UHGV virus genome: UHGV-0385690
From: a virus
DNA length: 41,916 bases
Reading direction: 5' to 3' (one strand)
A program made the position numbers and the translations under genes. The notes below the pieces were generated by a model that had not been told where the DNA came from, did no database searches, and saw nothing but the letters and a program-made list of their open reading frames with translations. The stretch's first letter is position 1. Each line of letters starts with the position of its first letter. Positions 10,286-33,300 of this stretch are shown piece after piece.

Positions 10286-10612
10286 TTAACTTCCATCCCC
10301 GGTCCTTTGGTAGATTGCTTTATAGTACGGGCAAGTGTCGTACATATCGGCACAAAACAGCTCCTGATAATTTTTCTTTTCTTCATGGCTTGTAAACTCC
10401 AGCTTATTCCTGACTTCAAACCCCAGGTTATTTTCTATGTTCTCACAGGTAATGGTTGGAGATTTTTTATTATACCGGCTGACCGTTATACAATATGGGC
10501 ATCGTACCTCTTTCTTTTGGCGCACCCTCTCACATCCCTTCTTTACGCATACCAAACGGCAGCCCTTATCTGGACCGCTTTTTCTTTTGTTGTCGCTTTG
10601 CGGCCTTGTCAT
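10286..10612 (-). CDS. Cys-rich small protein (possible zinc-binding protein)
   Basis: ORF with CRLVCVKKGCERVRQKKEVRCPYC. Its start is uncertain. It overlaps the 3' end of the Rep-like gene in another frame. Confidence 0.25.
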   Translation of the reverse strand: MTRPQSDNKRKSGPDKGCRLVCVKKGCERVRQKKEVRCPYCITVSRYNKKSPTITCENIENNLGFEVRNKLEFTSHEEKKNYQELFCADMYDTCPYYKAIYQRTGDGS

Positions 10613-11372
10613 GGGCGGCCATATGGTAACCCGGTAACAATACAAGGGTGTATTCCAGGAATTCATAACCATTTTCCTGTATACCCGATTGTATGGTCTC
10701 TTTTTCCAGATAATATCCTTCTGGTACCTCAATGGCTCCTGGATCTATCCGTCTGCGTTTTCTAACTTTGGCTTTTTCCGGTTCTGGGCGTACCAGATTC
10801 TGAGATGGGTTATATCGCTTCCCCTGTAACCTTCCCTCTGTCCGCATAGTCTTATCTGAATATTTGATAAAATAAGCGGCCAACTTATGATAGCTCCCAC
10901 TCTCATCCATTGGTATTGCATTAATCCATCCATGGGGCCACGCTGCTTTTAATTCCCTTACATCTATTCCACCTGACTGAACCATATGTATATGCTCTGC
11001 ACCACGCTCTCCACGTTCGCCTACCCAGATATACTTTAAACGGATACCCGCCCTTCGATAGAGCTTCCTCAGCTGTTTTAAAAACTGCTTTACATAGGCT
11101 CTAAATTTTTTTGGTTCCCCCGGCCTCTTGTTCTTTTCAAAACTATATGTTACATACAGGTCAGCCCCAGAAAAATTCGCATCCATGATCCATGTCAAGG
11201 TACGGTATGCGTTTTTACGGTTTACCTCTGCCTGTTTCTCGCTGGTGGGCTTTTCCCGCTTTGCCCGCCTTTCTTTCATCCCTGTCAGTTTTCCATCGTT
11301 ATATTTCGCTGAATAATACGCACGGATGTTCTTAGTTCTCCCCGCATAGCATACACTTTCTATACACGCCAT
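10566..11372 (-). CDS. rolling-circle replication initiator-like protein (HUH superfamily, gpA-type)
   Basis: HUH motif AEHIHMVQ followed by a double-tyrosine motif AAYFIKYSDK (Y-x-x-K-Y-x-x-K), as in phiX174/P2 gpA-type Rep. Basic C-terminal tail. Confidence 0.45.
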   Translation of the reverse strand: MACIESVCYAGRTKNIRAYYSAKYNDGKLTGMKERRAKREKPTSEKQAEVNRKNAYRTLTWIMDANFSGADLYVTYSFEKNKRPGEPKKFRAYVKQFLKQLRKLYRRAGIRLKYIWVGERGERGAEHIHMVQSGGIDVRELKAAWPHGWINAIPMDESGSYHKLAAYFIKYSDKTMRTEGRLQGKRYNPSQNLVRPEPEKAKVRKRRRIDPGAIEVPEGYYLEKETIQSGIQENGYEFLEYTLVLLPGYHMAAHDKAAKRQQKKKRSR

Positions 11373-11505: not shown

Positions 11506-12552
11506 TTATGCTGCCTTGTTTCTTACTACCCTCAGCGTGTCTGGGGTCGACTGCGCATAATATAATGAAGTCACTCTCGAATCTGCATGTCCCATAATCT
11601 CCTGTATTGTTCCTATGTCAACGCCTTTGTTCTTCAGTTCCATTCCCAGAGTTTTCCGCATTTTATGCGGATACACCCTGCTTGTTACACCGGCCCGCTT
11701 TGCTATGTCCTTAAGAATACCTCGTACGGCGCATGTAGATAATGCCTGATGCGGCTCCTTAGAGCTTACAAATATGGCTGGGTTATGATCTGTCCTGCTA
11801 TTCAGATATTTCCTATAATGATAGATAGCGTCCGGGTCCAGATACAATGTGCGGTATCGGTTGCCCTTCTCGCCTAAAATCATTACGTCTCCTGTCTCCC
11901 AATTAACCAGGTCAATTGTAATTGCAACTACCTCGCCTACTCTGGCTCCGGTACTACGCAATACCTCCAGTATGGCTCGCTCCCTCAGGCTTTCACAGCC
12001 ATCTTTCAATCGTGCCATCTCTTCCGGTGTGAAATAGTCAATCGGCTTTTTGGTAACCTTCTGCGGCTCGATTGCTTCAACCGGATTTGCACTAATCAGC
12101 TTTTCTTTACGCATCCAGGTAAAAAATGCGGAAAGAAACCGGCGCTCATTATTGATAGTCTTTGGTTGGTTCTTTCGTCCTGTTTGCGAAACGTTCTTGT
12201 GTTCGTACCAGTCAAGGTAATAATAAATGTCTGGTTCTTCCATTTCGGTCAATGGTTTATATACCAAAGTGACCAAGCGCTTAATAGCACTTACATAACC
12301 ATACTTTGTCCCCTCTGCTAATTTCTTCTTTTTATATAGGAAGAGTTGCAATATGTATCCGTTCTGATTATCTATGCTGTCTTTCATTTCCATTGGCAGC
12401 GTATTAATCCTCTCAATCACTACGTCAACCAGATTCTTTGTTAGCACTCTTTCCAGCATTTCTAGCACGTCACTGCTCAGATAGTACGTCATTGCCACAA
12501 TTACGTTATTAATAATTTCCGCTTTTACACTCTGATTATCTGTATTACTCAT
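11506..12552 (-). CDS. tyrosine recombinase (phage integrase family), second copy
   Basis: R...HxxR...Y catalytic pattern: RSTGARVGEV, HKMRKT, GHADSRVTSLYY. N-terminal core-binding-type domain. Confidence 0.75.
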   Translation of the reverse strand: MSNTDNQSVKAEIINNVIVAMTYYLSSDVLEMLERVLTKNLVDVVIERINTLPMEMKDSIDNQNGYILQLFLYKKKKLAEGTKYGYVSAIKRLVTLVYKPLTEMEEPDIYYYLDWYEHKNVSQTGRKNQPKTINNERRFLSAFFTWMRKEKLISANPVEAIEPQKVTKKPIDYFTPEEMARLKDGCESLRERAILEVLRSTGARVGEVVAITIDLVNWETGDVMILGEKGNRYRTLYLDPDAIYHYRKYLNSRTDHNPAIFVSSKEPHQALSTCAVRGILKDIAKRAGVTSRVYPHKMRKTLGMELKNKGVDIGTIQEIMGHADSRVTSLYYAQSTPDTLRVVRNKAA

Positions 12553-13619: not shown

Positions 13620-15030
13620 GCCGTTCGTTTTATGCAGGTTGAACTGCTGGTTACCAGTACGTCCGTGTCACACCACAGTAGATAGAATCGGCAATGAGTA
13701 AAGGTTGGGTTCCCATTACAAATCTAAATAAGGAGTTGGATCTATGAACGCAGTTGGTATTGATGTTTCTAAAGGTAAAAGTATGGTTGCTGCCCTCCGC
13801 CCGTTCGGCGAAATTGTTGCCAAGCCATTTGAAGTTCCGCATACTTCCAGTGGTTTCCATCAGCTAGTTGATCAGCTCAATTCTCTGGACGGTAGTACTC
13901 GGATTATCATGGAGCATACAGGACGGTATTACGAACCTATGGCCCGATGGCTCTCTGACTCTGGTTTCTTTGTCAGTACGGTTAATCCAAAGCTGATTAA
14001 GGATTACGGCAATAACACTCTCCGTAAAGTTAAAACAGATAAAGCTGATTCCGTTAAGATTGCACGCTATGCTCTTGACAACTGGCAGGATTTGCGCCAG
14101 TATACCAGTATGGATATCATTCGCAATCAATTAAAAACCATGAATCACCAGTTCAGCTTCTACATGAAACAGAAAACCTCTTACAAGAACAACCTCATCT
14201 CCCTGCTGGATCAGACTTACCCTGGCATTAATGACTTCTTTGACAGTCCTGCCCGCAGCGATGGCAGCCAGAAATGGGTAGACTTTGTTTCCTCATTCTG
14301 GCACGTGGACTGTGTGCGTTCTCTTGGGCTTGCTACGTTTACTGAGCGCTATCAAAAATGGTGCAAACGGCACGGCTATAACTTCCAACCAGAGAAACCA
14401 GCACAGATTTATTCGTTTTCCAAAGAACTGATTTCCGTGTTCACGAAAGACTCTGTGACTAAGTTTTTGGTTAAGCAGGCTGTGGAGCAGCTCAATACGG
14501 TATCTTTCACAGTGGAACAGCTCCGCCTGGAAATGAACCGTCTCGCCGCCCAACTGCCAGAGTATCAGGTAGTCATGGCCATGAAGGGGGTAGGCCCCTC
14601 ACTCGGCCCTCAACTTATGGCCGAAATAGGCGATCTCTCTCGCTTTTCCCATCGTGAAGCATTAACTGCATTTGCCGGTGTGGACCCTGGGGTCAATCAA
14701 TCCGGCACCTATGAGGCACGTAGTGTCCGTACATCCAAGCGAGGATCACCGCAGCTGCGCAAAACGTTGTTTCAGATCATGGACGTCCTAATTAAGTCCG
14801 CTCCTTCCGATGACGCTGTTTATCGCTTTCTGGACAAGAAACGTTCAGAAGGGAAGCCGTACTATGTCTACATGACTGCCGGTGCCAATAAGTTCCTGCG
14901 AATCTACTATGGCCGTGTGAAGGAGTATTTAGCTGCCTTACCCAAACCAGAATAACCTTGACTTAACATCCAATAGGCCAGCGTTTTACGGTGGTCTTTT
15001 TGTAGTTCCTAAACGCTGCATAAAACTTTT
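13620..15030 (+). mobile_element. IS110-family insertion sequence (about 1.4 kb)
   Basis: A DEDD-type transposase gene is flanked by an 11-bp inverted repeat: gttttatgcag at 13627..13637 and ctgcataaaac at 15017..15027. Coding runs opposite to every neighbouring gene. Confidence 0.6.
13744..14955 (+). CDS. IS110-family (DEDD) transposase
   Basis: N-terminal MNAVGIDVSKGKS...MEHTGRYYEP (DEDD/RuvC-like), a C-terminal transposase_20-like region, and an AAGGAG RBS. Confidence 0.8.
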   Translation: MNAVGIDVSKGKSMVAALRPFGEIVAKPFEVPHTSSGFHQLVDQLNSLDGSTRIIMEHTGRYYEPMARWLSDSGFFVSTVNPKLIKDYGNNTLRKVKTDKADSVKIARYALDNWQDLRQYTSMDIIRNQLKTMNHQFSFYMKQKTSYKNNLISLLDQTYPGINDFFDSPARSDGSQKWVDFVSSFWHVDCVRSLGLATFTERYQKWCKRHGYNFQPEKPAQIYSFSKELISVFTKDSVTKFLVKQAVEQLNTVSFTVEQLRLEMNRLAAQLPEYQVVMAMKGVGPSLGPQLMAEIGDLSRFSHREALTAFAGVDPGVNQSGTYEARSVRTSKRGSPQLRKTLFQIMDVLIKSAPSDDAVYRFLDKKRSEGKPYYVYMTAGANKFLRIYYGRVKEYLAALPKPE

Positions 15031-20542: not shown

Positions 20543-20813
20543 ACGGTCTTATATCCATTCCGCGTTTCTCCGCTATCTCCTCTAAGCATTTCTTGCGCCA
20601 TTGATGCCCTATCGTTGCTGACTGTATTTCATAATCGCGCGCTTTCAGTGACACAATTCTAAGGTCTCTCATTAATTTCTCAAATTCACCTGGATATATG
20701 GTGGCATCCGCCTCTAAAATTCGTTGTACGTCAAAAGGTGAATACCCAACTCTGGCACACACTTCTCTTTCGCTCATTTCAAAGCATTCGGCTAACTCAT
20801 GCAATACGCTCAT
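20520..20813 (-). CDS. hypothetical protein with a possible HTH
   Basis: ORF of 97 aa. Confidence 0.4.
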   Translation of the reverse strand: MSVLHELAECFEMSEREVCARVGYSPFDVQRILEADATIYPGEFEKLMRDLRIVSLKARDYEIQSATIGHQWRKKCLEEIAEKRGMDIRPCGDPHVF

Positions 20814-21376
20814 TTTTTCTCCTCACACTTCTTTATTGCCCGGATGACCGTCGCACTGCTACAGCCTAACATACGCGCTATCTCGTTCACTCCGCGGCCA
20901 GATGCTCTCAGCTTGGCAATTTCTATGTGTCTTGCATTGATTTTGTCCTTTTTTTGCTTTGCACATCGGACAACATTGGCAACCGCCTGCTGACTATATC
21001 CAGTCTTTTCTGCTATTTCAGCATTACTCAGGCCGCGATATGCCAAATTCATTATCTTTTTCCTCCGCTCTTCCATCCTTTCTTCCTCGTTCGGCATATG
21101 TATATCCGTCCGAAGTTTTGGGCGCCTTTTCACATTATAAAGAAGCGCTTCCTGGAGTGTCATGCTCCGCTGCATCCTTCCAAGCTGTAGAGTGATGATG
21201 TTTTTATAGATTCCAGTAATTAACATTCGTCTCTTGACCATCCTGGATCCTCCTATCCCATCGCTTCTTGAGACTGATTCATAATATATAAGCTGGTCTC
21301 CTATCTTAAGAGATTTTCTGTATGCCTCTAATTCATCCCTTTTTATCGGGTTTTTTGTTTCAATTCCCATATTCAT
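20810..21376 (-). CDS. DNA-binding regulator with two sigma-70 region-4/LuxR-like HTH motifs
   Basis: LAYRGLSNAEIAEKTGYSQQAVANVV and LRASGRGVNEIARMLGCSSATVIRAI. Confidence 0.5.
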   Translation of the reverse strand: MNMGIETKNPIKRDELEAYRKSLKIGDQLIYYESVSRSDGIGGSRMVKRRMLITGIYKNIITLQLGRMQRSMTLQEALLYNVKRRPKLRTDIHMPNEEERMEERRKKIMNLAYRGLSNAEIAEKTGYSQQAVANVVRCAKQKKDKINARHIEIAKLRASGRGVNEIARMLGCSSATVIRAIKKCEEKK

Positions 21377-21424
21377 CCCTCAATTTGTTTGACATATGCA
21401 TGCATTTCAGTTATACTATGGATG

Positions 21425-21498
21425 ACGTGTTTGCTTCTTTGGTTTAGGAACGGATTAGCCACCGTTCCACCGGCCGATTTTATTCGGCCGGTTTTTTA
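21425..21498 (+). ncRNA. candidate small antisense RNA (promoter, two hairpins, intrinsic terminator)
   Basis: TTGACA (21389..21394), 17 nt, TATACT (21412..21417). Hairpin ggaacgg-n8-ccgttcc (21447..21468). Hairpin ccggccga-n6-tcggccgg (21470..21491) followed by ttttttatt. Antisense to the 5' leader of the tandem-HTH regulator gene. Confidence 0.45.
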
Positions 21499-21650
21499 TT
21501 GCACCGGCCTACTGGCTGGATAAGCACCGGCTTATATCCGATTCCCTCGATTGCTGTATAATTCCGATTTTTCATCTTCCGGCAATCACACTTCTCTCCC
21601 GGGTCCAATGCTCCCCCGCAGTATTCACACGTTCTAAACTGTCTTGCCAT
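21480..21650 (-). CDS. zinc-ribbon small protein
   Basis: MARQFRTCEYCGGALDPGEKCDCRK..., GGAGGAAGG RBS. Confidence 0.4.
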   Translation of the reverse strand: MARQFRTCEYCGGALDPGEKCDCRKMKNRNYTAIEGIGYKPVLIQPVGRCNKKPAE

Positions 21651-22225: not shown

Positions 22226-22555
22226 ATGAAACACTTTAACCACATGTTTACTGATGATGATATTTTAACTCTTACATGTACTCTTACAGCCCTTCCCCTC
22301 ATACATATGGACGGCGTATCAGAAACTCAGCAATCAATAAATGACTCCTGCTGCAAAAGCGCCCTTGAGAAATTAATAAATCATCAGACTGACATTATCC
22401 CCAATGAGACTAAAGTCATTGCCGTTTCTCTCATAGCTGCCGATATGGTTCTAAAAGGAGATCTGGAGGTTGATAGCTCCATCCGTGAACTATTCGTCCC
22501 CTACCGCTTTTCTATTAACCGTCTCCGTCCTATATTTGAAGAAATCTTTATTTAG
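22226..22555 (+). CDS. hypothetical protein encoded opposite to the surrounding operon (moron-like)
   Basis: AAGGAGAG RBS 7 nt upstream. A candidate own promoter TTGTTT-n16-TATAAT lies at 22150..22175. Confidence 0.5.
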   Translation: MKHFNHMFTDDDILTLTCTLTALPLIHMDGVSETQQSINDSCCKSALEKLINHQTDIIPNETKVIAVSLIAADMVLKGDLEVDSSIRELFVPYRFSINRLRPIFEEIFI

Positions 22556-23367: not shown

Positions 23368-23407
23368 GTATTTCACCTCCTTTGTTCTTTTCGTTATCTT
23401 TGATTAC

Positions 23408-23436
23408 ATTATAGTGTTCAAAGATTACTTTGTCAA
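23408..23436 (-). promoter_or_regulatory. leftward early promoter: TTGACA (23436..23431), 17 nt, TATAAT (23413..23408)
   Basis: Perfect sigma-70 consensus on the minus strand. It overlaps a palindrome ATCTTTGA-n14-TCAAAGAT (23396..23425) and GATTAC motifs. Confidence 0.6.
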
Positions 23437-23466: not shown

Positions 23467-23495
23467 ATTGACTCTATAACGCATACGTGCTATTA
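23467..23495 (+). promoter_or_regulatory. rightward promoter for the repressor gene: TTGACT, 17 nt, TATTAT
   Basis: Read directly. AGGAGGTGA RBS, then ATG at 23516. Confidence 0.55.
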
Positions 23496-23515
23496 TCATG
23501 TCAGGAGGTGAATTT

Positions 23516-24038
23516 AATGATTGAAAATGAGCGTATAAAAGAAATTAGGAAATCGCTTAAAATGACTATGGAAAGATTTGGTGAAAGACTTGGTGTTACA
23601 AAAACTGCCATATCTAATATTGAAAAGTCGAACCGTAATGTAACAGAACAGATGCGCAAGGCAATCTGCCGAGAATTTAACGTAAATGAGGAATGGCTTC
23701 GGACCGGCAATGGGGAAATGTTCGTCCAGTTATCGCAAGATGACGAGACAGCACATATTGTTCAGGATATGCTGGGCAGTAATACAGGAAGTTTTTATAA
23801 TATCATCTTAGAAATTGCCAAGAGTTACAAAAAGCTTAGCCCTACTTCTCAAAAAGCATTAAATGAGTTGGCAGACAATTTATTGGCTGGTTTGGTTAAC
23901 AAAGAAGAGAAAGATGAATCCGAAATGACGTTTGATGAATTGATTGCTGAATGCCCAAAAACTCCAGAAGAGCTCGAACGTTTATATCCGCCAGTCAATA
24001 TCAAGCCTAAGGTTGTCAGTAAGCCTAAGGTTATTTAA
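23516..24038 (+). CDS. XRE-family HTH transcriptional repressor (CI-like)
   Basis: IKEIRKSLKMTMERFGERLGVTKTAISNIEKSNRNVT is a canonical HTH_XRE. Divergent from the early operon. Confidence 0.75.
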
Positions 24039-24300: not shown

Positions 24301-25521
24301 ATGAGTGAATTATTAATATTATCCATGATATTTTCAATATGCCTTTTTTTCCTTGCAAACAAGAAAAAGGTTAATTCTAATAGTAAATCAGAAGATATTC
24401 TGAATGTGAAAATTAAGCAATTGGAATTAAGCCTTGAAACTTCCCTTACTGAAAACAAAAATCTCGCCGCTCATAAAATGAGATTGCTCAAAGATTTGGA
24501 ATCTCAATTAGAGAAATATAATGCTTTGCTTTCTGATTATAACAAACTAACGTGTGATTTAAATACATATATTGAACATCGTAATGACGATTTGAAAAAT
24601 ATTTTCTCAAACTGTGACCACGCCTTTTCGTATGTTGCAACTTTATATGCAGATTATCTTCTAGTGGATTATGAAAATGCCAGCAAATATCTGTTAAACA
24701 AAAAAAGGCCAGCCACCTCTGAAGGGCTTAGAATAGGAGCCTTAAAACTTCAAACAAAATCTTATTTGGTTGAGCTCAATAAAACAAAATACCAATTAAA
24801 TTATCTGCTAAATTTATATCCAGAACTAGAAGATTTTATTGAATCTGACGATGACGGAGACAGGGAAGAAGCAGCTCGTTCTAACGATAAAATACCTGAT
24901 GATACATGGCGTTCTCTATCTGAATCTCAAAAAAGCCAATTGCTACTTACAAATTACTTAAATCGGCGCAAGAGTAAGTGGGAAATTGGACGTGACTATG
25001 AACTGTATGTTGGTTATAAATATAGTTTGCAAGGTTATTCTGTCGATTATTTTGGTTCCTATAATGGTTTGGAAGATTTAGGGAGAGATTTGATTGTCAA
25101 AAAGAAGGGGGAGACTGGCATTATCCAATGCAAATATTGGTCCTCAAAAAAGCAAATACACGAAAAACACATTGCTCAGCTATATGGAACTGTCGTGAGT
25201 TATATAATAGAGAATAATTATATTCCTTCTTTGGTTCATGGAATCTTTATAACGAATATATCCTTATCTGATACTGCAAAAAAATTTGCAGATTTTTTGG
25301 ATATTAAATATAAAGAAAACTATCCCATTGGTGAATTTCCACGTATCAAATGTAATATTAGCAAGGATGAATATGGTAATGAAACTAAAATATATCATCT
25401 TCCTACTGACCAGCAATATGATAACGTTAAAATAGAGCATACAGGAGAATGCTTTGCCTTTACAGTAGATGAAGCGGAAAAATTAGGTTTTCGTCACGCC
25501 TACAAATGGCATAATAAATGA
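24301..25521 (+). CDS. membrane-anchored coiled-coil protein with a C-terminal Mrr-cat/NERD-like PD-(D/E)xK nuclease domain (candidate defence or abortive-infection gene)
   Basis: N-terminal TM LLILSMIFSICLFFLA, coiled-coil from about aa 30 to 110, and a C-terminal GRDYELYV...GY.V...GLEDLGRDLIVKKKGETGIIQCKYW (D...D-x-K core). Confidence 0.55.
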   Translation: MSELLILSMIFSICLFFLANKKKVNSNSKSEDILNVKIKQLELSLETSLTENKNLAAHKMRLLKDLESQLEKYNALLSDYNKLTCDLNTYIEHRNDDLKNIFSNCDHAFSYVATLYADYLLVDYENASKYLLNKKRPATSEGLRIGALKLQTKSYLVELNKTKYQLNYLLNLYPELEDFIESDDDGDREEAARSNDKIPDDTWRSLSESQKSQLLLTNYLNRRKSKWEIGRDYELYVGYKYSLQGYSVDYFGSYNGLEDLGRDLIVKKKGETGIIQCKYWSSKKQIHEKHIAQLYGTVVSYIIENNYIPSLVHGIFITNISLSDTAKKFADFLDIKYKENYPIGEFPRIKCNISKDEYGNETKIYHLPTDQQYDNVKIEHTGECFAFTVDEAEKLGFRHAYKWHNK

Positions 25522-25621: not shown

Positions 25622-25651
25622 CGCCCATTTCTGCAATGGGCGTAATTTTTT
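25622..25651 (+). terminator. intrinsic terminator-like hairpin (cgcccat-ttctgca-atgggcg followed by taatttttt) between the nuclease gene and int
   Basis: Read directly. Confidence 0.45.
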
Positions 25652-25671
25652 ACCCTTATGGAGGAAATAAT

Positions 25672-27015
25672 ATGGCATCTGTAAGAAAAAAGAACAATGG
25701 TTATGAGGTTACTGTTAGTGATGGATATGATTCTAACGGTAAGAAAGTCACTGTAAGCAGGACTTTTATCCCCGAACCAAATTGGAATGAAAAAAGAGTT
25801 CAAAAGGAATTAGAAAAATTCAAGGTTGAGTTAGAGAACCGGGTTAAACACGGTGATAATGTCAAGGCAGATAAAATAACCATTGAAAAATTATCAGCCG
25901 ACTTCCTGACAGATATGAAGCCGCCTGAACTCTCTCATACCACATATGAATCTTATAAAAAAATCATAGAACAGCGCATTATCCCACACATAGGCCAGGA
26001 ACGCATTACACGGGTTAATGGTCATACTGCAAAAATGTTTGAAGATGCTGTCAGATCCGAAGGGAGACTTGATAAAAGAAAGGGGCCTATCTCAGAGCAG
26101 ACTATCAAGCGAATGACTTTAGTTTTGAGCGCCATGCTCTCCTATGCGGTAAGCCTTGGGTGGCTTTCCATGAACCCACTTATTTTTTCCGGTAAACAGC
26201 GCAGGAAGCAGACCAAAAAGAAAGAATACGAGGTTGCGTATCTTTCTATAGAGCAGGTAAAAAAATTCCTTTGGATTCTGGATAATCCGGTTAAAATACG
26301 TCGGAAGGCTCATGTTTCCAAGCGCGGAAATAAGGCGATTGAAACAAAAGAATATTTTCAAGACTGGCAGTTAGATACAAAATGGCGCTTTTTCTTTTAC
26401 CTCTCCTTGTTTACAGGTGACAGAAGGGGCGAGAACATATCCCTTACCTGGGATAGCATTGATTTTGAAAAATGTACTGTATCCATCTCAAAATCAACAG
26501 CTAAAACTGAGGATGGAGTATTATTAAAAGATACTAAGACTCATGCGAGCCGTGTCACGGTCGTTCCGCCCTTTGTCATGCAGGTAGGCAAGGAGCTTCT
26601 GGCAGAGCAAAAAAGAATCTGCCTGTCCCTCGGCGATAAGTGGCAAGGCTATCGTGGCCGGAGCTTCAGCAAAAATTTCGTATTTACATCCTGGGATGGT
26701 TCCCAGATGCATCTGGACAGCCCTAGAAGGGAATTTAAACGGCTTATACGTATCTATAATGAAAATGTATCCACCGGTGAAGATGACAGGCTTCCTGAGG
26801 CTGCTACGCTTCACAGCCTACGTCATACAACGGCCTCTATACTTATATCAAATAACATGGATCCACAATCAGTTGCCGGTATTCTGGGACATGCTAAGTC
26901 TACTACTACTTTGAATATATATTCGTACTTTTTCAAATCCAAGAATCAGGAAGCAGCCAATATTATGGAGAATGTTTTACTCAATCCTACTGAAAAAACA
27001 TCAATAGTAGGATGA
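25672..27015 (+). CDS. int: tyrosine integrase
   Basis: MASVRKKNNGYEV start with a GGAGG RBS. C-terminal LRHTTASILISNNMDPQSVAGILGHAKSTTTLNIYSY (HxxR ... Y). Lies adjacent to the att core. Confidence 0.85.
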   Translation: MASVRKKNNGYEVTVSDGYDSNGKKVTVSRTFIPEPNWNEKRVQKELEKFKVELENRVKHGDNVKADKITIEKLSADFLTDMKPPELSHTTYESYKKIIEQRIIPHIGQERITRVNGHTAKMFEDAVRSEGRLDKRKGPISEQTIKRMTLVLSAMLSYAVSLGWLSMNPLIFSGKQRRKQTKKKEYEVAYLSIEQVKKFLWILDNPVKIRRKAHVSKRGNKAIETKEYFQDWQLDTKWRFFFYLSLFTGDRRGENISLTWDSIDFEKCTVSISKSTAKTEDGVLLKDTKTHASRVTVVPPFVMQVGKELLAEQKRICLSLGDKWQGYRGRSFSKNFVFTSWDGSQMHLDSPRREFKRLIRIYNENVSTGEDDRLPEAATLHSLRHTTASILISNNMDPQSVAGILGHAKSTTTLNIYSYFFKSKNQEAANIMENVLLNPTEKTSIVG

Positions 27016-27350: not shown

Positions 27351-30300
27351 CTATTGCTTCTTTGCATTCTCATCTCTCTCTCTTTCTTTAGCCGCTTTTC
27401 TCCAGCTTGAATAATCAGTTCCGCTGTATATATTTTTTCCGTCCACCCTCAGTACATTTAATTTTGCCTGGATTGCTTCATATTCTTTACGGTTTCCCTC
27501 CAGATATGCTGCTATCCATTTTTCTTTATAGGACCGCGTAATGGATGACTTAATGCTACTTATGGCCTCTGACTTTGTTTTCCCGGCTTTGGTTTTGCTG
27601 TCTATGATTTCAGCCGATATCGCTTTAAAGGCATCCAGGCTCTTCACTGTATTGTCTACTTTCTCAACTGCTCCGAGGATATCTCTGGAAGAGTAAATGC
27701 TCCACTCTTCTTCGTCTTTTTCCCCAGTCAGTATCTCACCATACAGTTCATCCGGATCCGTTTTCGCCTCTGCCTCCCAGTCTATCTCTTCCCCTGTACT
27801 GAGCTGATTGATTCTGGAATCAACCACGGAAGTTACCAGTTTTCCGGCATATCCTTCTGCGATTAGTTCACCAACAGCCGCTTTGTATGCTTCTGTATCA
27901 GCTTCCATTTTGGCCTGTGCTGCGGTTTCAATCCTTGGGTCTATATAATCTTTTGATATAAGTTCTCCTTTTATGAGGGACTTAATTTTATTGCTTATGG
28001 TTTCATTGTCGAACTCCGCTTTGTTTAAATCGGTCTTGATCCGCTTCTGGAGAGCCTTATCACCGTTTCTTTGGGCTTCGATCATCATTCCTGCGTATAG
28101 ATTCAAGTTATCTTTGCTTCCTATGGCATATTTTTGCTTTAACCACGTATAGTCTACTGAATCGCTCCCATGCTCATTAATAACAGTATCTACAATCGCT
28201 CTTAAATCCCTAGTTGCACTTTTTACTGGTGAACCAAACAGTTTACTACCACTCTGAATCACGTCTATTATAACCGCTTGTGGTGTTAAGCTGCTTTCTC
28301 CATCAGCAAGCTTTTTCACCCGGTTTAAAGCCCTGGCTAAATCCTGATAAGCAGCAACATCTGGGCGGTTTGGGGTGTATCCATCAATTAATATTCCGTA
28401 CGCATCTTTTACATAAGGGATACTGTTTATTAGATTCATATTGTCTTTGAAATTCCCCCATACATTATCCCAATATTTTTCTATCCATTTCTTATCCCTA
28501 TCATCATCTCTCATTGCATCCTGGATTGCTGCGGCCATTGATGTAACCAGGGCAGCTGCGGTATATACAGCGACCGCTTTAGCCATACGGCCTTTGGCGC
28601 CTTTCTTCCCTACGGCAACATCAGAGGCAGCTCGATAGAGCATATTATATGTTTTAAGTGGTTCCGCCATGAATGCAGTCAACATCTTATCCGAATCACG
28701 TTCGCTTCTCATAATCTGGGTTCTGTGCAGTACTGAATCCACTACCTGTGTTTTGTCAATAACCTCGCTGAATCGTTTCCCTACCTCAGCATAAAACGCT
28801 TCGGTACCAACAGACAGATCCGGGTGTCTGTCCATACATTCAAACTCACATGCTCTCCACAGCCTATTCCATGCGAGCTTATCACCTTTTTCAGCGAATA
28901 TCATAAATGCATTATTGATTTTCTGCGTTTTACTATCTGTCTGGAATAATACATCCTTTATCTGCCTGCTATTGTCCATACGATAGAATCCCCAGTCTTT
29001 CCACTGAGCAATTGGTGCGTATTTACACATAATGTCCCACTGGTCTTTCCTGGTCATCGTAAGCGCGCCTCTGCTCAAATACTTAGCATCTATTTCCATT
29101 GATGCTCTTATATAGGCTGTCGGTTGCTGCAAAGCTACTCTAATGTTACCCGCAACAGAAGCGACCTTCATATTTTGTGACAGTTTGTCCCAGAGATTCT
29201 TGTCTTTATTAAGGCTTCCGTTAATATCCGCTATCAACTTGTCAATATATTTGTTCCCTTCTTTTCCGTAGGTGCGCTCTATTTCCTCCTTTATACTTTT
29301 TCCATCTGCCGCGTTTCTCATATCCATATAATTGAATACTTTATTAAGGTCTGATAGAGGAATCACATAGGCATTGTATGTGCTCATTTGGTCCACTTGC
29401 CTCGAGTATACATCGAATATATCTTCAATCACGATAGGTTTATTCGCTTTTTCCACGGTACTTTTTGTGAATCCTAGGTTTTTGATAGTACTCTGCTGGT
29501 TTTTTAAGTTTCCCTGCTCCGTATGGATATGATTATCATATACTGTAATTGGAAAATAATTTCTCGCTGTATATTTCATATATCCGTACATCTGCATACT
29601 GACTTCATTTCCCCACGCTGCACAATCATCTCCCATAAATCGCTGCATCCCGTCGGCCAATGCCTTTTGTTCCGGCGTCAGAGTATTAATAATCCTTGCT
29701 ATATCTGCCTCTGTCACTTTGGTTTCTCTGTATGCCTTTTCTATTTTTGGCAATATCAGCTTTCCATCTTCGATACGCATTTTACCCGCCCTTGGAGCTG
29801 ATATAATGCCTCCCGTACGTTCATACATGTGAGTGCGCGCCTGGTTTCGCTTGTTCAATTCATATAATGACATTACTTGTGAAATAGTAAGCTCAATTGT
29901 CCCTCCAGACGTTTTATATTTACCCGGCTTTGCCTCTGGTCCAGTCCATTCTCTCAGCGTCTTATATGATATTCCATTATCCTTCAGCAACTTTTCCACA
30001 TGGTCCTGTGCATTCTTAAGTTTTATTGTCTTTTTGTCCAGCCCTTCCCGAAGGGAATTGTAAAGAGATTTGAAGTTATCACCCAGTTTTCCAAACATAG
30101 TCTGTGCATCCAGCATATCATAATTCAACATTTTATCAGCCGGCCCGATTACTCCCAGATATTCTGAGTGGTTCTTTCGGTCCTGTAAATCGTCAAATAC
30201 GCCTTCCGCAAGAATGCTGAGTTGTCCGGAACGTTTGTTACTCTTTAAGGTGTTGGCCTCCGTGATTGCCTTTTTCATAGACAACACGACCTTTTTTAGT

Positions 30301-33300
30301 TCTTCCATATGGTAAACATCCAAGTTGTCCAGTTTTTCCACGCCTTCCGCTTTCTTTGCAATTGCTTCAATCCGCTCAACAAGGTCTGGGTCTATCTCCA
30401 TATAGAACTCTCTTCCATCCTTCCCACGAAGGATACCATCTTCCTTTATAATCTTTTCAAATGCATCCTTTGCATTCCTCCAAGCCGTGGTGCGCTGGGT
30501 AGGTATCCCGTTGTTATTCAGTTCATTAGATGAAAAATCAATATTGGAAAGGAATTCTGCCACAACGGTTCTAATTTCCTCCGGGATATGTTTTGTATCC
30601 GTGGGTTTTAACAGCCAAGTCTGCATTGTCTTTACTTCCTTCATGATTATTTTCTTGGCTTCCCTAGCTCTCTGATTCTCTCTCACTCGTTTTGTCTGAT
30701 CACGGTTTTTCTGCTGCATTGCCGCCAGAGCCTGATTCTTTTCATTTCTGAGGTCATCCATCTTCTTTTTATAATATTCCTTCTGTTCCCTCTGCTGGGT
30801 TGCCGTCAGATTTTTATACGCATTAGCAAGCTTTTGAATCTCCTGTATATTCTCCCTACGAACCCGGTATAGATTGTCCTCATACTGCTTTTTCAGATTG
30901 TTCTTATACTCCCTCATTTTCTGAGAGTACTCCCGCCTCACCTTCTGTATCTCCGCCTCTTTACGGTCCGCGAATGTAGGTTTTTCCTGACGTACGTCAA
31001 AGTAAGATTGCAAGATATCCTGCCCTACCATATAGGCCATTTCATCCAGGTTGGCCTTATACGGATTTTGTACCTGTATTTCGGTCTGTTCCAGCGCATC
31101 CGCGATGGCAACTAGCTGGTCGGCCGGATGGGTAATATCTTCCGGGAATAATTCCGGATGTAGTGCTGACAATTCTTGATACAAGCTGTCTACCGGTATT
31201 CCATCGTTTCCCAATTTCATCCTGCCAAAATTACGCTTCCTAAATTCGTTATATCCGCCCGATACCGCCATGTCTGCCTTGTCCTGTTCAGAAATCTTAA
31301 TCTTGGTATTTTTTATCTGGTTTCTGACATCCTTATACTGTTGTGTCATTTCCGTATCAACCTGCCTGGATTGCTTTAGGATGCCCTTTGCAATACTCGT
31401 GGCGGCTTCTGTTAACTGGGCGCTGTCCACATGTTCGGCACTTCGGATATATCCATACAACTTATCCAGATTTTTTATAAGTGTTTCTGGTTTGTAGGTG
31501 CTGTTATATTCTCCAAGCAGTCCTTTTGCCACTTTTTCCACATCACGCTGCCTTACCTCGTTTTTGGGGGTAAGCGTAAATTGTTTTTCAAGGAGTTTAT
31601 TAGCATCTCTCAAAGCCTGATTTTCATCCAGTAACGCCTCTATATGTCTATCTGTTTCTGCTCTATCTACATCTTCCAACTGTAATCTTATTTTCTCCGG
31701 CTGGTTTTCACCGTTGACATCCATAAGTTTATTGAGTATACTGTAGATAGGCGGAAGAGTGTAAGTGTCGCTCCGTGTTTTGCCTCCTTGGAGGTCCGGG
31801 GTCTTGAACGGCATAACACTCTCCGCCTTTGTTGTGTGTACTTCATGCAGATACATTTTATTATCATCTAACAATTTCACAACTGCCAATCCATAATATT
31901 TCCCAGCATACTTTCCCTCAGAAATATTTACCTTAGCTCCTATCACGGCTGAATCATAACCCCTGTTTTTCCAGTTCTTTTTATAGTCCAATACATAGCC
32001 GTTTTTCAATATATCCGGAACAGCTGCAAATGTAATTGCCTTTGCCCGTCCTACTCCATGGCCTATATCATCCTTTACGCTATCTCTATCAAGATATATG
32101 TCTCCTACTACTTCATTGTGCACTTTTCCTCCGATTGACTTATAAAAATCAGAAACTTGGGTTACAAGGTCTTTCTCGCCCTTTTCAAATTCGTTTCCTG
32201 ATAAATCCGCTACCGAATCCATTTCTCTGACCTTTTCATAATTCTCTTCAATGTTTTCATCTGTCACCAATTCTGGTTTTTCCAAGGCGTACTGTTCCTT
32301 CTGCCCCTCTGCCTGTCCCTGTCTGTCTGCTTTGTATGTTTCGCTGGCGTCTGACAGTGCATGCATCCAGGCGTCTCTGGCATCCTCATAATATCTCAGG
32401 TCCTCTTCCAGTCCCTTTGCGGCTTCCCTGGTGCTTCCATTCTTCATCAGCTGTTTGATGGAATCAACCACATCACTCAGGAAATCCACGATTCTCTGTG
32501 CAATTGTTTTGTCCTTTTTGGCAATAGAATCAATGAATTTTGGATCATTAAAGAACTTCTGCGTGGCGTCCGCCACAACCTCATCCATGATTTCCTCCCG
32601 TGTCAACTCCTGTCCGGCCTCTGCGTACCTGTTTTCATAGCTCTCCATGAGGTTTTCCAAGGATGTGTTTTCCGATTTCATAACGGCTTCCACGGCTATC
32701 TCTGTATACAGCCTATATCCCTTTGGCGAATACTTCTTGATATGGTGTGTCAGTTCATGGGTAAGAGTTCCGTTGAAATCGTTGCTGTTAATGGAGATAG
32801 TGATTTCTCCATTTCCATAAGAGCCGGCCGCGTTGGTCTGTCCCAATCCATCCACCAGATTAATTTTTAAACCGGTCATCTTTCCTATATGCTCTGCCAC
32901 TTTACGCTGCGGTGTAGTTGCGCTTTCCGATACAGTTCCCAACCCTCCAGTCCTTAGGATTCCCTGGGGAACGGTTTTGGGCCGGCCGGTTTTCAGGTCT
33001 ATATTGTTGTCCGTGTTGTAATCCTGCGCGCCGGCTTTATATGCATCCACAAACTGTTCATTCGTTAGTACGCTCATAATGGCCGAGCGTTCTGCAATAT
33101 CCATGCTCACGTTATAGTAACCTGCATCGTAGGCACGCCCAAAAGCTTTATTGTAGGCAGACAGCTCAATGCTGCCGTCATATCCTTTCTGTAATGCCTC
33201 CTGGCCATTCTTCCCATATGGCTTTCTATATGCTTCTGTCTGATTCGGAACAGCCTGGCTGGCCACTGTTTGATTCACAGCCGGTTTCTGTGTTGGTTCC

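What the first reader, a model, noticed from the sequence alone, without database searches (positions are those of the whole stretch)
21389..21500. Compact sRNA gene (consensus promoter, two hairpins, terminator) antisense to the leader of the tandem-HTH regulator
The plus strand carries TTGACA, 17 nt, TATACT. About 30 nt further are the hairpin ggaacgg/ccgttcc, then the hairpin ccggccga/tcggccgg, then ttttttatt. All surrounding genes are on the minus strand, so this unit of about 75 nt is antisense to the junction between the zinc-ribbon gene and the start of the sigma-70-r4-like regulator. The geometry resembles lambda OOP RNA, which modulates cII. It could time expression of the regulator.
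Basis: seen in the sequence. Interest (0 to 1): 0.55.

Follow-up and report, generated by a model that had tools for sequence, protein, structure and literature searches.

The report
Conserved antisense small RNA in gut phage
A temperate phage of human-gut Clostridia carries a small, self-contained RNA gene pointing against its early lytic operon; relatives keep its promoter, hairpins and terminator while its sequence diverges, so it is most likely a new family of the well-known phage antisense regulators such as lambda OOP.

Summary
On the + strand TTGACA-17-TATACT (21389-21417) is followed by a 7-bp hairpin (21448-21468), the strongest intrinsic terminator in the region (21469-21492) and a T-tract. 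This predicts a transcript of about 77 nt (21424-21500). The combination appeared in 0 of 200 simulated windows.

I collected 25 distinct versions from related human-gut phage contigs, in eight sequence types. All keep TTGA..-17-TATACT, a G 7 nt after it, and a terminator with T-tract. The terminator helix covaries at 5 of 11 pairs. Wobble pairs favour the + strand about 8 to 1. The stem is conserved as nucleotides even where the overlapping zinc-ribbon ORF reads it in another frame.

No Rfam family matches. The unit lies inside the early lytic operon, downstream of a cI/cro-type switch. It is antisense to the last 21 nt of the zinc-ribbon gene and to 56 nt of the regulator's leader, and it ends 48 nt before the regulator's Shine-Dalgarno sequence.

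Expression and mechanism are inferred. The likeliest mechanism is duplex formation with the early mRNA followed by RNase III-type processing. No attenuator, RBS switch or second target was found. The locus is a sharp divergence island (45-68% identity against 90-100% in the flanks), which hints at allelic specificity types. It is a new family of a known kind.

The parts
21389..21394 (+). -35 hexamer TTGACA of the sRNA promoter
   Evidence: 11 of 12 match. TTGA is invariant in all 25 distinct relatives, as TTGACA or TTGATT.
21412..21417 (+). -10 hexamer TATACT; the spacer is exactly 17 nt
   Evidence: TATACT and the 17-nt spacing are invariant in all eight sequence types, although the spacer sequence differs. 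Hexamer positions are 10 of 12 invariant against 18 of 43 for the other leader positions, Fisher p=0.012.
21424..21424 (+). Predicted transcription start (G, 7 nt after the -10)
   Evidence: Inferred from promoter geometry. A T-G at +6/+7 after the -10 is invariant in all types. Not determined experimentally.
21424..21447 (+). Single-stranded U-rich 5' tail of the predicted sRNA
   Evidence: The sequence is not conserved between types.
21448..21468 (+). Hairpin H1 (GGAACGG / CCGTTCC, 8-nt loop)
   Evidence: A hairpin of different sequence sits at the same place in seven of eight types and is absent in type C. G.U wobbles occur on the + strand at three sites and one site favours the - strand.
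21469..21492 (+). Intrinsic terminator hairpin (9 bp, 7 G-C, 6-nt loop); the loop holds the stop codon of the zinc-ribbon ORF
   Evidence: top-ranked terminator. Covariation on A7: 5 of 11 pairs change on both sides (1 of 500 shuffles reach this), score 0.199 (0 of 500), 91.7% paired against at most 46% when partners are slid. All wobbles in properly aligned rows are G.U on the + strand.
21493..21500 (+). T-tract (TTTTTATT), the predicted 3' end of the sRNA; it also encodes Lys-Lys-Asn of the zinc-ribbon protein on the other strand
   Evidence: A T-tract is present in every relative. Third-codon-position diversity is 0 under it, against 0.27 in the rest of the ORF.
21480..21650 (-). Zinc-ribbon ORF (56 aa; CxxC...CxC). 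Its last 21 nt overlap the sRNA
   Evidence: No Pfam, PHROG or NCBIfam match. Hydrophilic, maximum Kyte-Doolittle 15-residue average 0.75.
21371..21479 (-). Leader of the regulator gene within the early operon. Positions 21424-21479 are complementary to the sRNA; the Shine-Dalgarno GAGGG is at 21381-21377
20810..21370 (-). Regulator with an N-terminal domain of unknown function and two HTH motifs (186 aa from the ATG at 21370)
   Evidence: Pfam HTH_23, HTH_38, Sigma70_r4_2 and GerE. Start codon from the alignment of homologues. A gene of this family follows the sRNA locus in every relative.
21377..21556 (.). Divergence island. Identity to the otherwise 90-100% identical relative L003 is 45-68% here, with a sharp edge at the regulator start codon
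23408..23436 (-). Perfect TTGACA-17-TATAAT early promoter, the presumed source of the target transcript, facing the cI-like repressor gene (23487-24038, +)

Best explanation
This is a gene for a cis-encoded antisense small RNA of about 70-77 nt.

How it is made: a near-consensus housekeeping-sigma promoter on the lysogeny (+) strand starts transcription at about 21424. A strong intrinsic terminator stops it at about 21497-21500. The promoter carries no repeat shared with the cI/cro operator region, so the RNA is probably made constitutively, including in the lysogen.

What it is complementary to: the RNA is perfectly complementary to the polycistronic early lytic transcript that starts at the consensus promoter at 23436 (- strand). 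It covers the last 21 nt of the zinc-ribbon gene and 56 nt of the leader of the N-domain/HTH regulator gene.

Proposed action (inferred): the sRNA pairs with that transcript into a duplex of about 75 bp. A double-strand-specific nuclease (RNase III in Firmicutes) cuts the duplex. The cut exposes the upstream piece to 3' exonucleases and the downstream piece, which carries the regulator and the ParA/ParB-like genes, to 5'-to-3' decay. A constant pool of sRNA would then set a threshold. Leaky early transcripts in a lysogen are neutralised. After induction, strong early transcription titrates the sRNA and can also occlude its convergent promoter.

Status of the steps: the promoter, terminator, structure, strand and conservation are shown by computation. 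Expression, pairing in vivo, the nuclease step and the direction of the effect are inferred.
For: 1. All elements are present and jointly improbable by chance.
2. There are 25 distinct homologous loci in eight sequence types, from IMG/VR, ENA, JGI and Logan human-gut assemblies. All keep TTGA..-17-TATACT, a G 7 nt downstream, and a terminator with T-tract, while the spacer, the 5' tail and the hairpin sequences differ. The hexamers are conserved more than the rest of the leader.
3. The terminator helix covaries.
4. Strand: about 8 independent wobble sites are G.U on the + strand, which would be C.A mismatches on the - strand. One site favours the - strand. The + strand folds more stably in most variants. 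The T-tract follows the stem only on the + strand.
5. The constraint is on nucleotides, not on the peptide. Synonymous sites under the T-tract and 3' arm are frozen. The stem CCGGCTGA is kept while the ORF reads it in different frames, giving the tails ...NKKPAE*...KKTG* and ...NKKQTG*.
6. The seed-like parts are not conserved between types, as expected if complementarity comes from being encoded opposite the target. No second complementary site longer than 12 nt exists in the phage.
7. Context: the unit lies about 2 kb downstream of a cI/cro-type switch with a 12 of 12 early promoter. It is on the same strand as cI and the integrase.
8. Precedents: OOP (77 nt, RNase III), sar and aQ in PMC12197685. 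RNase III silencing of prophage genes through antisense RNAs in B. subtilis in PMC3531473. RNase III-dependent countertranscript control in pCF10 in PMC3181467.
Against: - There is no transcript evidence of any kind.
- The sRNA does not reach the regulator's Shine-Dalgarno sequence or start codon; the gap is 48 nt.
- Folding of the leader shows no conserved sRNA-dependent switch or attenuator.
- The direction of regulation is not fixed by the data. Duplex formation or processing could also stabilise one of the fragments.
- In the window's own type A, an SD-sequestering helix uses bases at the very edge of the target, so an activating effect cannot be excluded.
- H1 is missing in one type.
- Covariation in H1 alone was not significant on the small first alignment.
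- The wobble asymmetry is modest: 8 against 1 gives a one-sided binomial p of about 0.02, and the events are partly related by descent.
Confidence: 0.6

Rival explanations
1. Interference or insulation without a functional RNA. The convergent promoter matters because RNA polymerase bound or firing there collides with or blocks early-operon transcription. The terminator only stops antisense transcription from running back into the immunity region. The RNA product itself is irrelevant.
For: A strong promoter faces the early operon at a fixed distance (15-19 nt between the start codon and the -35) from the regulator gene in all types. The sRNA sequence itself is poorly conserved. Convergent-promoter switches are established, for example in the pCF10 literature found.
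Against: A hairpin upstream of the terminator is kept in seven of eight types with different sequences and with + strand wobbles. Pure interference does not require that. A unit of only 75 nt gives a very short collision zone. The two mechanisms are not exclusive.
Confidence: 0.12
2. A trans-acting phage sRNA, with the antisense location incidental. A pyrimidine-rich, anti-Shine-Dalgarno-like motif (CCUCC or CUUCUUU) in H1 or the tail binds ribosome-binding sites of host or phage mRNAs, as C-rich sRNAs of Firmicutes do.
For: Most types carry CCUCC-like motifs in the H1 loop or 3' arm (B, D, E, F, G, H). Types A and C have C/U-rich tails. The promoter is probably constitutive and lies on the lysogeny strand.
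Against: Pairing to the regulator's own translation start is no better than for shuffled sRNA, with z between -1.2 and +0.9. No second site exists in the phage. The motif is not conserved in the window's type A. The motif-bearing types fall into only about three homologous groups, so the recurrence is weak evidence. G+C-rich hairpins contain such motifs by composition. Host targets could not be searched.
Confidence: 0.12
3. The conserved hairpins work in the - strand early mRNA, for example as a processing or stability element at the end of the zinc-ribbon cistron or as a protein-binding site. On this reading the + strand promoter-like hexamers are not used.
For: Hairpins form on both strands and the energies are similar in type A, -30.2 against -30.0 kcal/mol. 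One variant (L014) and types C, E and F fold slightly better on the - strand.
Against: Wobble sites favour the + strand about 8 to 1. The U-tract is on the + strand only; on the - strand the stem is followed by GGUGGA, so it is not a terminator there. This reading does not explain the invariant TTGA-17-TATACT in otherwise unalignable leaders.
Confidence: 0.06
4. A type I toxin-antitoxin pair. The small zinc-ribbon protein would be a toxin, and the convergent sRNA overlapping its 3' end would be the antitoxin, as in txpA/RatA or bsrG/SR4 of B. subtilis prophages.
For: The geometry is convergent with 3' overlap, the location is a prophage, the ORF is 56 aa, and there is a precedent in PMC3531473.
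Against: The protein is hydrophilic and basic with no membrane segment: maximum Kyte-Doolittle 15-residue average 0.75, mean -0.76, four Cys in CxxC/CxC. It has no promoter or terminator of its own and lies inside a long operon. The overlap with the ORF is only 21 nt.
Confidence: 0.03

Closest known systems
Bacteriophage lambda OOP RNA (77 nt, promoter pO; PMC12197685, PMC5869508)
   Same: The size is about 77 nt. It has its own promoter and an intrinsic terminator. It is transcribed against the early operon of a temperate phage. It overlaps the 3' end of the upstream gene and the following intergenic region. RNase III-dependent destruction of the target is the model mechanism.
   Different: There is no sequence or structural homology detectable, and no Rfam family reaches threshold. 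The host is a Gram-positive gut Clostridium-type bacterium. The overlapped gene is a zinc-ribbon ORF of unknown function, not cII. The ORF overlap is only 21 nt, and most of the RNA faces the leader of the next gene. OOP favours lysis by lowering CII, whereas here the sign of the effect is unknown.
Phage P22 sar RNA (68/69 nt; PMC12197685)
   Same: It is a small antisense RNA within an operon, opposite the intergenic region that precedes a regulatory gene, and it is made from a constitutive-type promoter.
   Different: sar covers the ribosome-binding site of ant. The RNA here stops 48 nt upstream of the regulator's Shine-Dalgarno sequence.
Phage P1/P7 c4 antisense repressor of the immI region (from my own knowledge; not checked in the paper library)
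   Same: In P1 and P7, allelic RNA/target specificity types define heteroimmunity. This matches the sharp divergence island with discrete sequence types seen here.
   Different: c4 is processed from the same transcript as its targets and blocks a ribosome-binding site. Here the RNA is a separate countertranscript. Immunity function was not tested.
Countertranscripts of Gram-positive plasmids: pCF10 Anti-Q (PMC3181467); pIP501 RNAIII and pT181 RNAI (from my own knowledge)
   Same: The host phylum is Firmicutes. They are small structured RNAs with hairpins plus a terminator, directed against the leader of a regulatory or replication gene. They involve convergent promoters, and RNase III takes part in pCF10.
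   Different: Those act mainly by transcription attenuation at a leader terminator. No hairpin with U-run exists on the - strand between the target and the regulator start here.
Antisense antitoxins of prophage type I TA systems in B. subtilis (RatA/txpA, SR4/bsrG; PMC3531473)
   Same: Convergent 3'-overlapping sRNA on a prophage, with RNase III-dependent decay.
   Different: The overlapped ORF is not a hydrophobic toxin and is not an autonomous transcription unit.

Membership tests
Any described RNA family (Rfam 15) | Covariance-model score at or above the family's gathering threshold | tested here: not met
   There were 0 hits at gathering thresholds in the whole window. With permissive settings the best hit was Hrs13 at 23.7 bits against a threshold of 52, and it aligned only through the generic terminator.
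Cis-encoded antisense sRNA (class) | Own promoter on the strand opposite the target gene(s) | tested here: met
   The match is 11 of 12 consensus positions. The hexamers, the 17-nt spacing and the +1 G are invariant in eight diverged types. This evidence is computational only.
Cis-encoded antisense sRNA (class) | Defined 3' end (intrinsic terminator) giving a short discrete transcript | tested here: met
   It is the top-ranked terminator. The helix covaries. A T-tract is present in all relatives.
Cis-encoded antisense sRNA (class) | Perfect complementarity to a transcribed mRNA | tested here: inconclusive
   Complementarity is by construction. That the early operon is transcribed through 21500-21424 is inferred from the 12 of 12 promoter at 23436 and the absence of a convincing - strand terminator in between.
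Cis-encoded antisense sRNA (class) | The RNA is actually made and changes target expression | not testable with these tools
   No transcriptome data are accessible.
Lambda OOP-type RNA | Antisense overlap with the 3' end of the upstream early gene, and RNase III-dependent cleavage of that mRNA | tested here: inconclusive
   The overlap of 21 nt with the zinc-ribbon ORF is met. RNase III dependence is not testable. Homology to OOP is not detectable.
Attenuation-type countertranscript (pIP501/pT181/pCF10 kind) | A leader terminator (hairpin plus U-run) downstream of the antisense target, whose formation depends on sRNA binding | tested here: not met
   There is no - strand terminator-like site between 21424 and 21371. 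Constrained folds of nine leaders show no such hairpin.
RBS-occluding antisense RNA (sar, Sok, RNA-OUT kind) | The duplex covers the Shine-Dalgarno sequence or start codon of the regulated gene | tested here: not met
   The sRNA 5' end at about 21424 is 48 nt from the SD at 21381-21377. Trans pairing to the translation start is no better than shuffles.
Type I toxin-antitoxin | The overlapped ORF encodes a small hydrophobic, membrane-active toxin with its own transcription unit | tested here: not met
   The protein is hydrophilic. It has no promoter or terminator of its own.

The most novel reading that the evidence does not exclude
The sRNA and its target form an allelic specificity cassette, a second RNA-based immunity layer in Gram-positive gut phages.

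The idea: a resident prophage constitutively makes the sRNA. The sRNA then also acts in trans on the early transcript of an incoming phage that carries the same allele, and blocks it. Phages with a different allele escape. Selection for escape would explain two things. First, this 180-bp stretch is 45-68% identical between genomes that are 90-100% identical on both sides. Second, at least eight discrete types circulate with the same architecture.

This would parallel P1/P7 c4 heteroimmunity and plasmid incompatibility groups, in a lineage (Enterocloster-type Lachnospiraceae prophages) where nothing of the kind is described.
Probability: 0.2. Interest if true: 0.65.

Novelty: new member of a known kind. 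Interest (0 to 1): 0.45.

Why it matters
Regulation of the lysis-lysogeny switch in the abundant temperate phages of gut Clostridia is almost unknown, and known phage antisense regulators come nearly all from enterobacterial models. This locus is a clean, well-delimited and widespread candidate. The linked zinc-ribbon protein clusters were seen on hundreds of contigs, and one cluster is named from Enterocloster. It can be tested directly by Northern blot or RNA-seq and a single promoter mutation. The natural set of allelic types offers a ready-made specificity-swap experiment. It also shows how an sRNA terminator can dictate the C-terminal residues of an overlapping protein. If it proves inactive, the loss is small: it would be one more conserved antisense promoter.

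Tried and rejected
1. Rfam, at gathering and at permissive thresholds, gave nothing meaningful.
2. GenBank phages, searched by DNA and by protein with the locus and the regulator, gave no match. Only distant hits to uncultured human-faecal phages and Flavonifractor phage Cormatin appeared, for the ParB-like protein and the portal.
3. GTDB species-representative genomes gave no hit, neither by regulator protein pattern nor by terminator DNA pattern.
4. Operator sharing with the cI/cro region was tested. The palindrome ATGCATGCAT in the promoter spacer is not repeated there, and no shared repeats were found. I therefore have no evidence that cI controls the sRNA promoter.
5. An sRNA-dependent RBS switch or attenuator in the leader was sought. 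Constrained and unconstrained folds of nine leaders gave weak SD-sequestering helices that were not conserved and that do not depend on the sRNA target.
6. A second target inside the phage was sought. Nothing longer than 12 nt was found.
7. Anti-SD pairing of the sRNA body to the regulator's translation start was no better than shuffles.
8. A peptide encoded by the sRNA was considered. There is only a 6-codon GTG frame without an RBS, and it is not conserved in other types.
9. The type I toxin reading was rejected because the ORF is hydrophilic.
10. The first covariation count, on a small alignment fitted to the covariance model (A6), was not significant, because type A H1 does not align to type B columns. 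It was superseded by the broader terminator alignment.
11. The identity of the regulator stayed generic. Pfam, PHROG, NCBIfam and PDB profile searches matched only the HTH parts.

Full report
**1. What is in the sequence**

- TTGACA at 21389-94, 17 nt, then TATACT at 21412-17. This is an 11 of 12 match. In the 11-kb scan it is second only to the perfect early promoter at 23436-23408 on the - strand.
- A hairpin GGAACGG/CCGTTCC at 21448-21468.
- Directly abutting it, the hairpin ACCGGCCGA/TCGGCCGGT at 21469-21492, followed by TTTTTATT. This is the top-ranked terminator-like site.

With a start at G21424, 7 nt after the -10, the product would be 77 nt. It folds into exactly these two hairpins at -30.2 kcal/mol, z = -5.16.

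In a simulation of 200 first-order Markov copies of the window, a promoter matching at least 11 of 12 positions within 150 nt upstream of a perfect GC-rich 8-bp stem plus T-run never occurred. No Rfam family matches.

**2. Context**

The window is essentially one temperate phage genome.
- The lysogeny genes are on the + strand. They are a cI-like XRE repressor (23487-24038), an Mrr-like nuclease (24301-25521) and a tyrosine integrase (25636-27015).
- A 12 of 12 consensus promoter (23436-23408) faces cI. It heads a long - strand operon.
- The operon runs through small ORFs, then the 56-aa zinc-ribbon ORF (21480-21650) and the 186-aa N-domain plus tandem-HTH protein (20810-21370).
- It continues with a 97-aa ORF, ParA, a DUF968/HNH-like protein, a ParB-like protein and a methyltransferase.
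- Further on come a rolling-circle-type Rep, terminase, portal and capsid.

The predicted sRNA is therefore a countertranscript inside the early lytic operon, about 2 kb from its promoter, on the lysogeny strand. It is complementary to the last 21 nt of the zinc-ribbon ORF, whose stop codon lies in the terminator loop. It is also complementary to 56 nt of the 109-nt leader of the regulator gene. It ends 48 nt upstream of that gene's Shine-Dalgarno sequence.

No - strand promoter or terminator was found in the leader.

**3. Relatives**

The regulator and the zinc-ribbon protein form narrow families.
- They are absent from GenBank phages.
- They are absent from the GTDB representative genomes.
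- They are present in IMG/VR, ENA, JGI and Logan assemblies, several of them labelled human gut.
- One zinc-ribbon cluster is named 'MULTISPECIES: hypothetical protein [Enterocloster]' and was seen on 446 contigs.

From 51 loci I obtained 25 distinct versions of the junction. They fall into eight sequence types, A to H.

**4. What is conserved**

*Promoter.* All versions keep TTGA(CA or TT), a spacer of exactly 17 nt, TATACT, and T-G at positions +6/+7 after the -10. Between types the spacer, the 5' tail and the hairpin sequences are largely unalignable. Within types A and B, 10 of 12 hexamer positions are invariant, against 18 of 43 other leader positions (Fisher p = 0.012).

*Terminator.* All versions end in a strong hairpin plus T-tract. 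On a 15-sequence alignment of that helix:
- 5 of 11 pairs show changes on both sides, reached by 1 of 500 shuffles.
- The covariation score is 0.199, reached by 0 of 500 shuffles.
- 91.7% of cells pair, against at most 46% when partners are slid.

*Hairpin H1.* A hairpin of different sequence precedes the terminator in seven of eight types. Type C lacks it.

*Copy number.* A covariance model of H1 plus terminator finds one copy per locus and none elsewhere in the window.

**5. Which strand carries the structure**

Hairpins are symmetrical, so I used wobble pairs. In properly aligned rows, every non-Watson-Crick pair inside the terminator stem is G.U or U.G on the + strand. On the - strand these would be C.A mismatches. 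They occur in L028/L032, L010-13, L045 and L049.

H1 adds three + strand wobble sites and one site that favours the - strand. Overall about 8 sites favour the + strand and 1 the - strand. The one-sided binomial p is about 0.02, and the events are not fully independent.

The T-tract follows the stem on the + strand only. Most variants fold better on the + strand; the exceptions are L014 and types C, E and F.

**6. The constraint is on nucleotides, not on the peptide**

The 3' arm and the T-tract also encode the C-terminus of the zinc-ribbon protein. Third-codon-position diversity is 0.27 over codons 1-49. It is 0 in the N, K, K, P and E codons. The only variable codon (Ala, GCC/GCT) is matched by a compensating or wobble change in the non-coding 5' arm.

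In more distant types the same stem, CCGGCTGA, is read in another frame. The tail becomes ...KKTG* or ...NKKQTG* instead of ...NKKPAE*. The residues just before the tail are the most variable in the protein. The protein tail is therefore dictated by the terminator, not the reverse.

**7. A divergence island**

The window (type A) and locus L003 (type B) are 90-100% identical over about 1 kb on either side. They are only 45-68% identical in 21377-21556. The left edge is sharp and falls at the regulator's start codon.

This cannot be neutral drift on the same time scale. It is a cassette exchanged by recombination. The sRNA type goes with the zinc-ribbon allele and not with the regulator allele.

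Within type B the most variable part is the H1 loop.

**8. Mechanism**

Shown by computation: a conserved promoter, a structured RNA on the + strand, a terminator, and full complementarity to the early operon.

Inferred: the RNA is made constitutively. It pairs with the early transcript, and the duplex is processed. RNase III is the established route for such duplexes, in lambda OOP (PMC12197685, PMC5869508), in B. subtilis prophages (PMC3531473) and in pCF10 (PMC3181467). Processing would lower expression of the flanking genes and set a threshold that strong early transcription overcomes.

Alternatives tested and not supported:
- An attenuator in the leader.
- A conserved sRNA-dependent RBS switch.
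- A second target in the phage.
- Anti-SD pairing to the regulator's translation start.
- A peptide product.
- A type I toxin.

In type A, a weak SD-sequestering helix uses bases at the very edge of the target. An activating effect therefore cannot be excluded, and the sign of regulation is open.

Because the sequence between types is free to change while the architecture is kept, a cis-antisense role fits better than a trans-acting seed. Pure transcriptional interference remains a partial rival.

**9. Comparison and novelty**

In geometry and size the unit is closest to lambda OOP. In position before a regulatory gene it resembles P22 sar. In host phylum and hairpin-plus-terminator build it resembles Gram-positive plasmid countertranscripts. 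Its allelic types recall P1/P7 c4; that comparison rests on my own knowledge.

It is not a member of any described family. It fails the defining features of attenuation-type, RBS-occluding and type I TA systems. It is best filed as a new family of a known kind.

The sRNA gene is well supported. Calling the regulator the target and timing the function is plausible but untested, and the overlapped zinc-ribbon gene is an equally good candidate.

**10. Scores**

Interest is 0.45. The element is clean, conserved and widespread, sits in an understudied phage group, and is directly testable. The kind of element is familiar, however, and expression is unproven.

The most novel reading not excluded is allele-specific RNA immunity. 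I give it a probability of about 0.2 and an interest of 0.65 if true.

Noticed in passing
window 13744-14955 (+): An IS110-family transposase gene (DEDD_Tnp_IS110 plus Transposase_20) lies on the opposite strand in the middle of the - strand phage operon. It is probably an insertion sequence that has landed in this prophage. I did not check whether relatives lack it.
   Followed up: no
window 21163-21134 (-): A second strong promoter-like site (ATGACA-18-TATAAT, 11 of 12) lies inside the regulator's coding sequence on the sense strand. It could drive the distal early genes (97-aa ORF, ParA and others) independently of the sRNA-targeted leader.
   Followed up: no
window 24301-25521 (+); also L014 1-1111 and L045 1-652: An Mrr-like restriction endonuclease gene sits next to the cI repressor on the lysogeny strand. 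It recurs at the same place in relatives. It is a likely prophage-borne defence moron.
   Followed up: partly
window 22226-22555 (+); L015 2831-3157; L010 273-704; L011 2725-3165: This is a slot for a variable opposite-strand gene inside the early region. The window has a 109-aa ORF with no family match. Relatives carry different genes there, for example DUF6173 in L015.
   Followed up: no
sRNA hairpin H1 in loci L010, L018, L045, L047, L048, L049, L050 (for example L045, reverse strand of 2761-2862): Most sequence types carry an anti-Shine-Dalgarno-like CCUCC or CCUC motif in the H1 loop or 3' arm, so the mRNA leader carries a GGAGG-like motif about 70 nt upstream of the real start. The window's type A does not. 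Pairing to the regulator's translation start is no better than shuffles. The possibility that the GGAGG in the leader is itself functional (ribosome stand-by or stabiliser) was not tested.
   Followed up: partly
window 11506-12552 (-) and 10566-11372 (-): A second tyrosine recombinase lies next to a rolling-circle-type replication initiator, in addition to the integrase at 25636-27015 and the ParA/ParB-like genes. This is an unusual mix of integration, partition and RC-replication functions for one phage.
   Followed up: no
window 23390-23430: The repeated motif GTAATC(T/A)TTGA overlaps the spacer of the 12 of 12 early promoter and the bases just downstream of its -10 (inverted repeat I7; sequence). 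These are probably the cI/Cro operators. The motif is absent from the sRNA promoter.
   Followed up: partly
window 27351-35384 (-): A single 2677-aa ORF, presumably a tail or tape-measure-type giant protein, was not analysed.
   Followed up: no
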